From the UHGV virus genome UHGV-0114979: 13,455 nt of DNA. One strand, written 5' to 3'. Origin of the DNA: a virus. Position 1 is the stretch's first letter, and every line of letters starts with the position of its first letter. The position numbers were made by a program, and so were the translations under genes. Of the stretch, positions 3,168 to 5,285 are shown in pieces. The notes under the pieces are model-generated. The model was not told the origin of the DNA. It made no database searches and saw only the letters and a list, made by a program, of their open reading frames with translations.

Positions 3168-3356
3168 TTATTTCCCTAGCACATGAAACAATGTTTGCTT
3201 TAATTCCACCCATACAATTATGACCACTATAGACAGACAAAAGAAACTGAATGCATTGGCATCACGATCGAAACCTTCTCCGGCACTAAATCCGTAAAAG
3301 GTCATAAAAAATATAAAAATTGCGCACTTTGCAACGTTTACAAATTTTTTCTTCAC
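3168..3356 (-). CDS. Small (62-aa) membrane peptide with two hydrophobic helices, unknown function
   Basis: On the minus strand a near-consensus Shine-Dalgarno AAGGAGG (revcomp of 3362-3368) lies 5 nt upstream of a GTG start at 3356-3354. Translation is MKKKFVNVAKCAIFIFFMTFYGFSAGEGFDRDANAFSFFCLSIVVIIVWVELKQTLFHVLGK: a Lys-rich N-terminus and two hydrophobic segments separated by a charged turn. The ORF track's 87-aa version (start 3431) has no RBS and begins inside an operator repeat. Divergent from the 328-aa gene. Confidence 0.4.
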   Translation of the reverse strand: MKKKFVNVAKCAIFIFFMTFYGFSAGEGFDRDANAFSFFCLSIVVIIVWVELKQTLFHVLGK

Positions 3357-3419: not shown

Positions 3420-3511
3420 TAATGCAAGCATTTTGTTTTAGTTTTATGCTTGCTTGTATGTGTGTACAGTGTATATAATGCAAGCATACATCACAACAAA
3501 GGTGCTTGCAT
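3420..3511. promoter_or_regulatory. Promoter for the 328-aa gene, embedded in four operator-like palindromic sites (TAATGCAAGCAT)
   Basis: Sigma70-like promoter on the + strand: -35 TTGCTT (3450-3455), 18-bp spacer, -10 TATAAT (3474-3479). Copies of the 12-mer TAATGCAAGCAT sit at 3420-3431 (+) and 3476-3487 (+, overlapping the -10 and start site). A reverse-oriented copy with one mismatch is at 3500-3511 (GTGCTTGCATTA), and a weaker reverse copy ATGCTTGCTT at 3446-3455 overlaps the -35. Each core is a near-palindrome, ATGC-NN-GCAT. Confidence 0.5.
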
Positions 3512-3512
3512 T

Positions 3513-4499
3513 ATGACTGAAAAGAAAAGTGGCGAAGGGAAAGCTAAGGGCGGGATCGCTCGCGCAAAGTCGCTGACTAAAGAGCAGCGTTCTGAAATAG
3601 CAAAGAAAGCAGCGGCAAAACGATGGGAAGGTAAGCCACTAAGAGCGATCAGAAAGGGTAACTTCATTGATGATTTCGGCATTGATGCAGAATGTTACGT
3701 ACTTGATGATAATGATAAAACGGTTGTAGTTAGTAAAACTGGTCTGGCTAAATTACTAGGAATCGGTGAGCATGGTAGGGATGTAGACCGTTTTCTAAAT
3801 ACGAATTATATGGCTGATTTTGTTGATCCATTTCTGCTAGAAAAATTCAAAAAACCTCTTATTTTTCAATGGAGAAGTCCGGTCCCAAACTCAGCCCCAA
3901 ATCCACTCGCTGATGAGGCTCACGGTTACGATATTGCCCTTATCGGTGATATAGCCACAGCAATGATTAATGCCGATCGAGCTGGCGCTCTACCGCCTTC
4001 AAGATCAAAATCTGCCAGCCTTGCCCAAAGACTTGTTACCGCATCAATGAAAGCAGGGCTTAAAGGACTTGGTTATGCTATTGCAGGATATCGACCTGAA
4101 GTACAGGAGGTTATTGATTCCTTCAAGGCCTTTGTTCGTGAAGAGGCGAGGCAGTATGAAAAAGAATTTCCAGATGAGCTATATGAGGAGTGGTATCGAC
4201 TGTACGGCCTGAACAGGCCAGAGAAGGGACGTCCAATTCGTTTTGGGCAGCTAACCAACATGCAGATATACACTCCGCTAGCAAAGAGTAAAGGTAAAAT
4301 CCTTGAACAGATTCGAGCCAGCCGAGACGAGAACGGAAAACAATCTGATAAGTTGCACCTGTTCCTTTCTGAAATTGGTGTCAAGGCTTTGCGTCAGCAT
4401 ATCGGTAAGCTTCTTGGTGTCGCAGCGATGAGCGAGACAAGAGAAGAATACGAAAAAGGAATAGAAAAGGTTTTTGGAAGAATAAAACCAGAAATCTAA
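3513..4499 (+). CDS. Hypothetical 328-aa protein with a basic Lys/Ala-rich N-terminus, occupying the sieA-equivalent cargo slot
   Basis: Long ORF; the ORF track starts at TTG 3450, but ATG 3513 is preferred, with a purine-rich AAAGG 10 nt upstream. The N-terminus is MTEKKSGEGKAKGGIARAKSLTKEQRSEIAKKAAAKRWEGK, a basic segment that looks like a nucleic-acid-binding tail. The rest is hydrophilic with no transmembrane segments and no catalytic motif I can recognise. Followed by a strong bidirectional terminator. Confidence 0.8.
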   Translation: MTEKKSGEGKAKGGIARAKSLTKEQRSEIAKKAAAKRWEGKPLRAIRKGNFIDDFGIDAECYVLDDNDKTVVVSKTGLAKLLGIGEHGRDVDRFLNTNYMADFVDPFLLEKFKKPLIFQWRSPVPNSAPNPLADEAHGYDIALIGDIATAMINADRAGALPPSRSKSASLAQRLVTASMKAGLKGLGYAIAGYRPEVQEVIDSFKAFVREEARQYEKEFPDELYEEWYRLYGLNRPEKGRPIRFGQLTNMQIYTPLAKSKGKILEQIRASRDENGKQSDKLHLFLSEIGVKALRQHIGKLLGVAAMSETREEYEKGIEKVFGRIKPEI

Positions 4500-4501
4500 T
4501 T

Positions 4502-4529
4502 AAAAAACCCACCTTCAGGTGGGTTTTTT
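4502..4529. terminator. Bidirectional Rho-independent terminator shared by the convergent 328-aa gene and mnt
   Basis: AAAAAACCCACC-TTCA-GGTGGGTTTTTT: 7-bp G/C-rich stem (4507-4513 / 4518-4524), 4-nt loop, A-run on the left and T-run on the right. The mnt stop codon (revcomp of 4515-4517) lies in the loop, and the right arm plus T-run encode the Mnt C-terminus …KKPT. Confidence 0.8.
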
Positions 4530-4769
4530 ATCTTCTCCGTACATGCTGCTGAGAGTCTTTAGAAGAGCCTCCCTAAATTTTTCAGATTCTTGTTGAGCAA
4601 AACCTTCTATTGTTCTTGGTGATTTTTCTTCATCAATAGCAGCTTGCAAGATCATAACTATTTCTGAATTTAATGAGCGTCCGTTTTTCGATGCTCTTAT
4701 GGTCAGGTCGCGCTTGAGGCTATCTGGCATTCTTACGCTATATGGGGCTATGTCTCTAACCTTCGTCAT
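4515..4769 (-). CDS. mnt: Mnt-like ribbon-helix-helix repressor (immI region)
   Basis: 84 aa: MTKVRDIAPYSVRMPDSLKRDLTIRASKNGRSLNSEIVMILQAAIDEEK… The N-terminal beta-strand/helix pattern and the NGRS-x-NSE signature match the Arc/Mnt (MetJ-Arc) family. Size matches P22 Mnt (about 82 aa as recalled). Divergent from arc across an operator-rich intergenic region, as in P22 immI. Confidence 0.8.
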   Translation of the reverse strand: MTKVRDIAPYSVRMPDSLKRDLTIRASKNGRSLNSEIVMILQAAIDEEKSPRTIEGFAQQESEKFREALLKTLSSMYGEDKKPT

Positions 4770-5031: not shown

Positions 5032-5219
5032 AAAACCGCAGATGTTGTTTTTGTGGGTGTAGTAAAGAAACGACTGGCAGGGGCTTTGTTGTGTCAAAAA
5101 ATACCGAAGAAGCAATTTGTGACTCATGCGTTACAGATATTGTTATTTTCATGCATGGCGAGAAGGGGTTAGATGAAAAGCTAGAGAGTATTCCAGTTGA
5201 AGGCGCTGATAAAAGTTGA
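5028..5219 (+). CDS. 63-aa C4 zinc-ribbon protein resembling the ClpX N-terminal zinc-binding domain
   Basis: The start ATG overlaps the arc stop (ATGA at 5028-5031), and a GAGGGGG purine tract lies upstream. MKNRRCCFCGCSKETTGRGFVVSKNTEEAICDSCVTDIVIFM… has C-x-F-C-G … I-C-D-x-C-V with about 21 residues between the Cys pairs, the same pattern as the ClpX zinc-binding domain (…CSFCGKS…ICDECV…). The C-terminal 25 residues are acidic. Confidence 0.6.
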   Translation: MKNRRCCFCGCSKETTGRGFVVSKNTEEAICDSCVTDIVIFMHGEKGLDEKLESIPVEGADKS

Positions 5220-5285
5220 AGCCCCAACTGCTGTAACAGTCAGGGCTTCGGTTGTCGGTAAATCCTTGGAGAAAAACCAACATGA
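5210..5285 (-). ncRNA. Candidate sar-like antisense RNA covering the ant ribosome-binding site and start codon
   Basis: On the minus strand a -10-like TATACT (revcomp of 5288-5293) would start transcription near 5282; the -35 is weak. Transcription would run leftward across the ant SD (GGAG 5268-5271) and ATG (5282-5284) into a hairpin (stem GAAGCCC 5218-5224 / GGGCTTC 5243-5249). On the minus strand the hairpin is followed by AACUUUUAUC. Predicted length is about 70 nt, matching the 68-69 nt I recall for P22 sar, which has the same position and polarity. Confidence 0.3.

What the first reader, a model, noticed from the sequence alone, without database searches (positions are those of the whole stretch)
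3513..4499. Uncharacterised 328-aa protein in the superinfection-exclusion slot of a P22-like phage
In P22 the interval between gene 16 and mnt carries sieA, a superinfection-exclusion gene. Here that slot holds a soluble 328-aa protein with a basic Lys/Ala-rich N-terminus (…KGGIARAKSLTKEQRSEIAKKAAAKRW…) and no motif I can tie to a characterised enzyme or defence family. It has its own operator-laden promoter and a strong terminator, which is the layout of an independently regulated moron. Cargo genes at such hotspots are often anti-phage or exclusion functions. It is a candidate single-gene defence or exclusion protein, or a DNA-binding regulator.
Basis: partly seen in the sequence, partly recalled or inferred. 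Interest (0 to 1): 0.7.

Follow-up and report, generated by a model that had tools for sequence, protein, structure and literature searches.

The report
Self-regulated P63C DNA-binding prophage gene
The 328-aa ORF is a real stand-alone prophage cargo gene of the large, uncharacterised P63C family; its basic N-terminus appears to read four operator sites in its own promoter, and its benefit to the phage (possibly defence) is still untested.

Summary
The ORF (3513-4499, +) is real. It lies in a P22-like prophage between gene 16 and mnt and has its own promoter and a strong bidirectional terminator. It belongs to Pfam P63C (PF10546) and PHROG 2384, a family of at least 4,700 protein clusters with no known function. 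RefSeq already names it "P63C domain-containing protein". It does not replace sieA. The sieA position holds a separate 62-aa membrane-protein gene (3168-3356, -), and relatives carry true sieA alongside the P63C gene.

The main new result concerns four 10-bp sites, ATGCWWGCAT, that overlap the -35, the -10 and the ribosome-binding site. They are conserved upstream of homologues in Enterobacterales, Pseudomonas, Gordonia phages and Acidobacteriota while the DNA between them diverges. The site sequence also changes together with the 27-aa basic N-terminal motif: L10/I18 motifs go with GCAAGC cores, and M10/S18 motifs with GCACGT. This argues that the protein binds its own promoter and regulates itself.

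Its function in trans is unknown. It gives no PADLOC hit, is not a BstA-family member, and has no significant fold match. Its position in immunity-adjacent slots and a BstA-like layout make a DNA-directed anti-phage role the best guess, at about one in three. This is a member of a known but uncharacterised family, of moderate interest.

The parts
3513..4499 (+). P63C-family gene, 328 aa plus stop
   Evidence: Translation. Pfam P63C and PHROG 2384. An identical protein in Salmonella and 1,421 homologues.
3546..3626 (+). N-terminal basic two-helix motif, aa 12-38 (KGGIARAKSLTKEQRSEIAKKAAAKRW); inferred sequence-specific DNA reader
   Evidence: It is the most conserved segment across the family. 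Residues L21 and I29 (motif positions 10 and 18) co-vary with the upstream site sequence. Homologues that lack the motif lack the sites.
3639..3992 (+). Compact alpha/beta middle domain, aa 43-160
4125..4388 (+). P63C Pfam domain, aa 205-292, inside a helical C-terminal region (aa 162-321)
   Evidence: A profile search of the C-terminal half finds at least 4,714 clusters, and the 120 best listed are 219-350 aa with P63C as the only Pfam domain.
3422..3431 (.). Operator O1, ATGCAAGCAT
3446..3455 (.). Operator O2, ATGCTTGCTT; contains the putative -35 TTGCTT (3450-3455)
   Evidence: The -35 assignment is read from the sequence, and the same layout is present in ST104.
3474..3479 (+). Putative -10 TATAAT, 18 nt after the -35
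   Evidence: Read from the sequence. The generic promoter scan did not call it. An equivalent TATTAT or TATAAT sits at the same place in homologues.
3478..3487 (.). Operator O3, ATGCAAGCAT; abuts the -10 and the predicted transcription start
3502..3511 (.). Operator O4, GTGCTTGCAT; overlaps the Shine-Dalgarno (about 3499-3504) and ends 1 nt before the ATG
4501..4530 (.). Bidirectional intrinsic terminator shared with the convergent mnt gene
   Evidence: (I3).
3168..3356 (-). Divergent 62-aa two-TM membrane protein gene (GTG start after AAGGAGG), occupying the sieA position; a variable cassette that shares the regulatory region
   Evidence: PHROG 21338, 1-62 of 62, E 4e-45. Hydropathy. Alleles at the same place in relatives include SieA and a lipoprotein, all behind the same conserved leader, which is also found upstream of P22 sieA.

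Best explanation
Anatomy (shown). This is a self-contained prophage cargo gene encoding a three-part P63C-family protein:
- a 27-aa basic helix-turn-helix-like N-terminal motif;
- a compact alpha/beta middle domain with a winged-helix or Bro-N flavour;
- a helical C-terminal P63C domain.
Four pseudo-palindromic 10-bp sites, ATGCWWGCAT, are spaced 24/32/24 bp. They cover the -35 (O2), the -10 and start site (O3) and the ribosome-binding site (O4), with O1 upstream.

Self-regulation (inferred from conservation and co-variation, not measured). The N-terminal motif reads these sites, so the protein represses its own promoter and holds itself at a low steady level in the lysogen. O1 would be centred about 44 bp upstream of a predicted leftward start site, behind a TATCAT -10 that has no recognisable -35. 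The protein may therefore also control the divergent membrane-protein cassette that occupies the sieA position.

Function in trans (inferred, least certain). The family sits repeatedly beside prophage immunity genes, and its layout parallels BstA: a DNA-binding N-terminal half, a C-terminal effector, and a cognate DNA element across the 5' end of its own gene. On that basis it most likely acts on DNA of incoming or replicating phages to interfere with superinfection.
For: Real, conserved gene:
-.

Operator layout is conserved while the spacers diverge:
- About 40 distinct IMG/VR loci with proteins 58-100% identical.
- ST104 ORF23, 32% identical and in a different genomic slot.
- Pseudomonas phage Lodos and Gordonia phage Barco.

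Association across phyla:
- 36 of the 120 returned genome hits to ATGCAAGCA-N12-18-TGCTTGCAT lie within 250 bp of the 5' end of a homologue. The hosts include Acidobacteriota, Nitrospirota, Proteobacteria and Chloroflexota.

Co-variation of motif and site:
- 54 of 62 distinct L10+I/Q18 motifs have at least two GCAAGC cores upstream.
- Of 17 M10 motifs, 1 has GCAAGC and 6 have GCACGT.
- Other motif variants pair with GATAGAT, TGTACGCA, ATGCTAAC or ATGCTGGT repeats.
- Homologues without the motif have no sites.

Other points:
- There are no compensatory changes between O3 and O4, so these are DNA sites rather than an RNA hairpin.
- In a complete carrier phage genome the only site cluster is at this promoter.
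- Contexts: gp16-[sieA]-P63C-mnt; cI-terminator-P63C-N, which is the rexAB/bstA slot; next to an S24 repressor and an ORF6N antirepressor; the nin region; prophage ends next to an integrase.
- BstA features are taken from PMC8585504.
Against: - No binding, expression or phenotype data exist, and nothing was found in the literature.
- The generic promoter scan did not call the promoter.
- The O3-O4 spacing varies from 23 to 25 bp between relatives, which is unusual for a rigid dimer site.
- There is no PADLOC hit and no similarity to the BstA HMM.
- hhalign against BstA gives only 5% probability.
- The acidic VDEATGYQ motif of most family members is replaced by YAIAGYRP in this subfamily, so no conserved catalytic residues are evident.
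- The distant contexts sampled are mobile elements, but none is a recognised defence island.
- Sitting beside repressors fits a regulatory role as well as a defence role.
Confidence: 0.55

Rival explanations
1. Local regulator only. The protein is a transcription factor whose whole job is to control itself and the divergent envelope-protein (sieA-position) cassette, for example by activating the -35-less leftward promoter from O1, in the way lambda CI acts at PRM. It has no direct anti-phage activity of its own.
For: The regulatory region is shared with a variable leftward cassette whose leader is conserved. O1 would be centred about 44 bp upstream of the predicted leftward start, behind a TATCAT -10 with no -35 (read from the sequence). 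No further sites occur in the carrier phage genome.
Against: In the cI-N slot, the nin region, Gordonia and Pseudomonas phages and chromosomal elements, the gene stands alone behind a terminator with the same four-site layout and no divergent partner. A roughly 290-aa conserved C-terminal body is large for a simple autoregulator.
Confidence: 0.2
2. Antirepressor-like or lysis-lysogeny switch protein. Like other phage proteins built from Bro-N, KilA-N or ANT-type modules (P22 Ant, Roi, ORF6N antirepressors), it binds a repressor or other regulator, its own or a competitor's, and influences induction.
For: It lies next to mnt-arc-ant, cI, an S24 repressor with an ORF6N antirepressor, and roi. 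Weak fold hits are enriched in Bro-N proteins. From my own recollection (the paper could not be retrieved), Iyer, Koonin and Aravind 2002 grouped P63C with these regulator modules.
Against: There is no sequence match to Bro-N, KilA-N, ANT, ORF6N or P22_AR in Pfam, even at E <= 10. Known antirepressors are held off by a separate repressor such as Mnt or LexA, not by operators that co-vary with their own N-terminus. The gene also occurs in elements with no recognisable immunity module.
Confidence: 0.13
3. The repeats are bound by something else (a host factor such as a SlyA/MarR-type protein, or Mnt, Arc or C2), or they act as an RNA hairpin that masks the ribosome-binding site. On this view the P63C protein does not bind DNA.
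For: The GCAAGC core resembles, from memory, the SlyA consensus TTAGCAAGCTAA. O3 and O4 form a perfect 12-nt inverted repeat around the Shine-Dalgarno and ATG (I5).
Against: The same sites accompany the gene in phages of Gordonia and Pseudomonas and in Acidobacteriota, Nitrospirota and Chloroflexota genomes, in unrelated immunity contexts. The site sequence tracks the protein's own N-terminal motif, even between phages of the same host: 933W and this prophage type (found in E. coli and Salmonella genomes). O4 variants (TGCTTAC, TACTTGC) are not compensated in O3, and the predicted start site lies inside O3.
Confidence: 0.05

Closest known systems
Pfam PF10546 'P63C domain' (named after Myxococcus phage Mx8 p63) / PHROG 2384
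   Same: Direct member. The Pfam score is above the gathering cut-off, and the PHROG match covers residues 6-327. RefSeq already uses this name for the identical gene.
   Different: The family has no assigned function. The Pfam model covers only aa 205-292. The conserved N-terminal DNA-reading motif, the middle domain and the cognate operators described here are not part of any model.
BstA (prophage BTP1 abortive-infection protein with its aba self-immunity element; Owen et al. 2021, PMC8585504)
   Same: Both are single-gene prophage morons with their own intrinsic terminator and similar size (307 vs 328 aa). Both have a putative DNA-binding N-terminal half and an unknown C-terminal domain. 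Homologues of this gene sit in exactly the bstA slot downstream of cI. [quoted passage not shown]
   Different: No detectable sequence relationship: the PADLOC BstA HMM does not hit, and hhalign gives 5% probability. aba is 63 bp with terminal CCCGCC direct repeats, not four palindromic sites over a promoter. No abortive-infection phenotype is known for any P63C protein.
P22 SieA (inner-membrane superinfection-exclusion protein; Leavitt et al. 2024, PMC10883804)
   Same: Same genomic neighbourhood, between gene 16 and mnt. The leader of the leftward gene here is homologous to the leader upstream of P22 sieA.
   Different: SieA is a roughly 19-kDa multi-pass membrane protein on the opposite strand. 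The target is soluble, basic and unrelated, and it co-occurs with SieA in relatives.
Autoregulated phage repressors with multipartite operators (lambda CI/OR, P22 Mnt and Arc)
   Same: Several short near-palindromic sites overlap the -35, the -10 and the start of a gene whose product appears to recognise them, with a divergent promoter alongside.
   Different: There is no canonical HTH or ribbon-helix-helix domain in Pfam. The protein is far larger than needed for repression. No other target sites occur in the phage genome, so it is not an immunity repressor.

Membership tests
Pfam P63C (PF10546) | HMM match above the curated gathering score | tested here: met
   52.3 bits against a cut-off of 26.1, E 9e-14, aa 205-292 covering model positions 3-92 of 93. 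28 of 34 diverse homologues also match.
PHROG 2384 | Full-length profile match | tested here: met
   E 1.4e-92, aa 6-327 against profile positions 4-328 of 338.
SieA (PF26849) superinfection exclusion | SIEA HMM match | tested here: not met
   The Pfam scan at E <= 1 returns only P63C. SIEA is found on a different, adjacent gene in relatives.
SieA (PF26849) superinfection exclusion | Inner-membrane protein with transmembrane helices | tested here: not met
   Maximum 19-residue hydropathy is 0.95, so no TM segment.
BstA abortive-infection family | Match to the BstA profile | tested here: not met
   PADLOC BstA HMM: no hit for the target or four relatives. BTP1 BstA scored E 1.9e-124 in the same kind of search.
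BstA abortive-infection family | KilA-N-like N-terminal DNA-binding domain | tested here: inconclusive
BstA abortive-infection family | Cognate DNA element at the 5' end of the gene that neutralises the protein; abortive-infection phenotype | not testable with these tools
   A cognate element at the 5' end exists and co-varies with the protein. Whether it gives self-immunity, and whether the protein aborts infection, needs experiments.
Known anti-phage defence systems (PADLOC-DB 2.0.0) | Match to any of 5,027 defence-protein models | tested here: not met
   0 families at E <= 1. The only hit among four relatives was a chance-level E 0.0056 to a Type I specificity subunit.
Bro-N / KilA-N / ANT phage regulator modules | Profile match to the N-terminal DNA-binding module | tested here: not met
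   No Pfam hit for aa 1-161 or 40-161 at E <= 10. Only sub-threshold Foldseek hits to Bro-N proteins, E 0.07-3.
Autoregulated sequence-specific DNA-binding protein | Repeated sites overlapping its own promoter, conserved with the gene | tested here: met
Autoregulated sequence-specific DNA-binding protein | Site sequence co-varies with a protein segment | tested here: met
   Related sequences are not independent, so no p-value is given.
Autoregulated sequence-specific DNA-binding protein | Direct binding and repression | not testable with these tools
   Needs EMSA or footprinting and reporter assays.

The most novel reading that the evidence does not exclude
P63C proteins are a large, unrecognised family of single-gene, DNA-directed anti-phage (abortive-infection or exclusion) proteins carried by temperate phages and other mobile elements. 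On this reading the N-terminal motif recognises a short DNA word. The four copies of that word at the gene's own 5' end serve both as an autoregulatory operator and, when amplified on the replicating prophage genome, as a BstA/aba-style self-immunity decoy.
Probability: 0.25. Interest if true: 0.75.

Novelty: new member of a known kind. Interest (0 to 1): 0.45.

Why it matters
P63C is a very large phage and mobile-element family: at least 4,714 clusters at 90% identity, spanning Actinobacteria to Proteobacteria and Acidobacteriota. It has no assigned function and essentially no literature.

This analysis gives the family its first concrete, testable molecular handle. There is a short N-terminal reading head with a predicted recognition code (motif positions 10 and 18 against the centre of the ATGC-NN-GCAT site) and a predictable operator in front of almost every member.

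If the defence reading holds, it would add a widespread single-gene system to prophage immunity hotspots (the sieA-mnt and cI-N slots) and a second example of BstA-like self-immunity logic. If it does not, the result still corrects common start-codon mis-annotations. It also shows that in this prophage the sieA position is a variable envelope-protein cassette sharing its control region with the P63C gene.

Tried and rejected
1. Sequence search of solved structures with the family profile found only chance hits, E 1.7.
4. The AFDB50 fold library was unavailable.
5. hhalign of the family against BstA, Roi and P22-type Ant found no meaningful match.
6. Pfam on the N-terminal 161 residues at E <= 10, and on 34 diverse members at E <= 1, returned nothing but P63C. 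NCBIfam returned nothing.
7. The RNA-hairpin reading of O3/O4 was rejected for lack of compensatory changes.
8. The host-factor reading was rejected because the sites travel with the gene across phyla.
9. A replication-initiator-with-iterons reading was considered because of four repeats, AT-rich spacers and weak DnaD hits. I dropped it because the gene is chromosomal in 78 of 79 E. coli places, and the P22-like carriers whose replication region was seen (ST104, 611R6) already have an O/P-type replication module.
10. Literature searches for P63C + phage and for PF10546, and look-ups of Iyer et al. 2002 by DOI and by a PMC id recalled from memory, returned nothing usable.
11. The LF82 'Gally' transcriptome paper reports macrophage induction of the mnt-side genes of a P22-like prophage. 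I did not establish whether Gally carries this gene, so it is not used as evidence.

Full report
**1. The observation**

The ORF is as described. ATG 3513 to TAA 4497-4499 encodes 328 aa. A 100% identical protein is recorded in Salmonella enterica, and 1,421 homologues score E <= 1e-5.

The window is a P22-like (Lederbergvirus-type) prophage end. In order it holds:
- gp20 and gp16;
- the target gene;
- mnt (-), arc, sar RNA (Rfam, 94 bits) and ant;
- a tailspike with the P22 head-binding domain;
- an acyltransferase and an integrase.

The protein is soluble and basic. The terminator after it is a 13-bp stem at -17.9 kcal/mol, z = -5, and it also serves the convergent mnt gene.

**2. What family it is**

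- Pfam P63C matches at 52.3 bits against a cut-off of 26.1, over aa 205-292. PHROG 2384 ('unknown function') matches over the whole length at E 1e-92.
- NCBIfam and PADLOC give nothing. As a control, the PADLOC BstA model hits BTP1 BstA at E 2e-124 but none of five P63C proteins.
- RefSeq already labels the identical E. coli gene 'P63C domain-containing protein'. It is present in 75 of 5,426 complete E. coli genomes, so it is sporadic cargo.
- A profile of the C-terminal half finds at least 4,714 clusters. The 120 best listed are 219-350 aa, mostly 300-350, with no other Pfam domain.
- The searchable literature holds essentially nothing on the family.

**3. It does not replace sieA**

In Salmonella prophages that carry the identical protein, the order is gp16, then a minus-strand gene, then P63C, then small ORFs, then mnt-arc-ant. 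That minus-strand gene is bona fide SieA (PF26849, 164 aa) in some. In others it is a lipoprotein (MKKSLLIIPLLLAGC...) or another membrane or secreted protein.

All these alleles share one conserved leader and RBS, and then diverge completely. The same leader lies upstream of sieA in P22 itself, up to ...GGATACCA.

In the window this cassette is a 62-aa two-TM protein, from GTG 3356 to the stop at 3168 (-). It matches PHROG 21338 end to end at E 4e-45. RefSeq does not annotate it.

The sieA position is therefore a variable envelope-protein cassette. The P63C gene is a separate, divergently transcribed neighbour.

**4. The operators**

Four 10-bp near-palindromes lie at 3422, 3446, 3478 and 3502. 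Their sequences are ATGCAAGCAT, ATGCTTGCTT, ATGCAAGCAT and GTGCTTGCAT, and the spacing is 24/32/24 bp.

Reading the sequence:
- a -35 TTGCTT lies inside O2;
- an 18-nt spacer leads to a -10 TATAAT that abuts O3;
- O4 overlaps the Shine-Dalgarno and ends one base before the ATG.

The generic promoter scan did not call this promoter, so the assignment is mine.

The same four-site layout occurs in other places:
- phage 611R6 and the Salmonella loci;
- upstream of ST104 ORF23, which is only 32% identical and sits in a different slot, between cI and gene 24;
- about 40 distinct IMG/VR loci whose inter-site DNA has diverged almost completely.

This is a phylogenetic footprint.

O4 variants (TGCTTAC, TACTTGC) are not compensated in O3, so the inverted repeat acts as DNA, not as an RNA stem. 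In the complete 45.9-kb 611R6 genome the only cluster is at this promoter; two further single 1-mismatch matches compare with about 3 expected by chance.

**5. Who binds the sites**

The sites travel with the gene far outside Enterobacterales:
- Pseudomonas phage Lodos;
- Gordonia phage Barco, where TTGCAAGCATG overlaps the start codon;
- 36 of the 120 returned genome-wide matches to ATGCAAGCA-N12-18-TGCTTGCAT, which lie within 250 bp of the 5' end of a homologue in Acidobacteriota, Nitrospirota, Chloroflexota and several proteobacterial classes.

The unassociated hits are therefore unsurprising.

The most conserved part of the protein across all these lineages is the 27-aa N-terminal motif. 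The window has KGGIARAKSLTKEQRSEIAKKAAAKRW and Barco has AGGIARAKKLTREERSEIARKAAAERW.

The motif and the sites change together:

| N-terminal motif type | Upstream repeats |
|---|---|
| L at position 10 and I/Q at 18 (62 distinct motifs) | at least two GCAAGC cores in 54 of 62 |
| M at position 10 (17 distinct motifs) | GCAAGC in 1, GCACGT in 6 |
| QRTERAKKAV type | GATAGAT / TTAGATA |
| RSESARNAA | TGTACGCA |
| RSLAAKHAA | ATGCTAAC |
| RKE[NG]AR[AM]AA | ATGCTGGT |

Among the M10 motifs, the 933W type (...KMTAEQRKESSRKAV...) pairs with TTGCACGT-N5-ACGTGCAT.

Homologues that lack the motif altogether, such as Salmonella phage Si3, have no such sites.

933W infects E. coli, and the window's prophage type is found in E. 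coli and Salmonella genomes. Because the two use different sites, a host factor is unlikely. I conclude, by inference, that the N-terminal motif is the sequence reader and that the gene is autoregulated. These counts are over related sequences, so I give no p-value.

**6. Structure**

The full-length AlphaFold model is moderate (pLDDT 71). It shows two N-terminal helices, an alpha/beta domain and a helical C-terminal half. The middle domain modelled alone is confident, at pLDDT 91 and pTM 0.81.

Fold searches give no significant match:
- Foldseek against viral models gives sub-threshold hits that are enriched in Bro-N proteins and include Mx8 p63.
- hhalign places the CYVLDD...GLAKLLG segment on the start of BstA's KilA-N-like domain, but at 5% probability.

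I treat 'winged-helix / Bro-N-like' as a lead only. No conserved catalytic residues are evident. The VDEATGYQ motif of most members is YAIAGYRP in this subfamily.

**7. Context and likely role**

The family recurs beside prophage immunity genes:
- sieA-position cassette, then P63C, then mnt-arc-ant;
- cI, terminator, P63C, N, which is the slot of lambda rexAB (from general knowledge) and of BTP1 bstA;
- convergent with an S24 LexA-like repressor next to a cro-like gene and an ORF6N antirepressor, inside a siphovirus tail module;
- the nin region, before roi in 933W and on the reverse strand next to dinI in SEN34;
- next to integrases at prophage ends, in a recombinase-trio element, or beside an IS.

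It is always a single gene with its own control region. This is the signature of lysogen-expressed cargo.

The layout parallels BstA (PMC8585504):
- a DNA-binding N-terminal half and an unknown C-terminal domain;
- its own terminator;
- a cognate DNA element across the gene's 5' end, with variant proteins carrying variant elements.

I therefore rank a DNA-directed superinfection-interference role first, at about one in three. Next comes a purely local regulator of the neighbouring cassette, then an antirepressor-like switch protein. None of these can be decided computationally.

**8. Verdict**

The gene is a new member of a known but uncharacterised family. The added value is the operator and N-terminal-motif code, and a clear set of experiments. 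Interest is moderate.

Noticed in passing
window 3168-3356 (-): An unannotated 62-aa two-TM membrane protein gene (GTG start, AAGGAGG RBS) that matches PHROG 21338 end to end. It occupies the sieA position as one allele of a variable envelope-protein cassette. Alleles in relatives include SieA, a lipoprotein and other membrane or secreted proteins, all behind one conserved leader that is also found upstream of P22 sieA.
   Followed up: partly
L005 5930-6000 (Salmonella prophage; 10 similar places not shown): A 56-bp deletion between the two identical TAATGCAAGCAT direct repeats (O1 and O3) removes O1, O2 and the putative promoter. It leaves only the O3/O4 pair in front of an intact, 100% identical P63C gene.
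   Followed up: no
L002 3917 vs 3953 (ST104 ORF23); L093 6001 (P0038); L003 3917 (933W L0095): Because the operators contain ATG, gene callers often place the start codon inside operator O3 (for example MQAHFTTKSACIM... or MQAIKQLGCLHM...). The conserved N-terminal motif and the RBS indicate a start 12-13 codons downstream in the two class-A cases. The 933W call likewise starts inside its own ACGTGCAT-type repeat.
   Followed up: partly
window 5214-5281 (-): The sar antisense RNA of the immI region (Rfam RF00262, 94 bits) overlaps the start of ant, so a complete mnt-arc-sar-ant module is present.
   Followed up: yes
L228 3897-4228 (+) (phage P22, between PsieA and the mnt terminator): At the place where this window has the P63C gene, P22 has an open reading frame of about 110 aa on the + strand. 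It contains an HExxH-like AHECAHM motif and is not among the annotated features of NC_002371.2. I read it by eye only.
   Followed up: no
L236, L243, L269, L270, L286, L296, L323, L324, L331, L334, L339 (Eggerthellaceae, Prevotella and other gut MAGs): The same inverted pair recurs with a conserved spacer (ATGCAAGCA-CCGAGAAnnTTCACGA-TGCTTGCAT or its complement) and no P63C homologue nearby. This is an unrelated conserved hairpin of unknown nature.
   Followed up: no
window 12531-12833 (-) and 8635-9627 (-): Other cargo in the window: a Lar-like restriction-alleviation protein (PHROG 599, E 5e-17) in the early-left region, and an Acyl_transf_3 O-antigen or LPS acetylase-type gene between the tailspike and the integrase.
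   Followed up: no
L093-L096 5181-8896: In a siphovirus-type prophage the P63C gene lies inside the tail module, between a DUF6246 gene and the tape-measure region. It is convergent with an S24 LexA-like repressor, which is followed by a cro-like ORF and an ORF6N antirepressor. This looks like a second-immunity island embedded in the structural genes.
   Followed up: no
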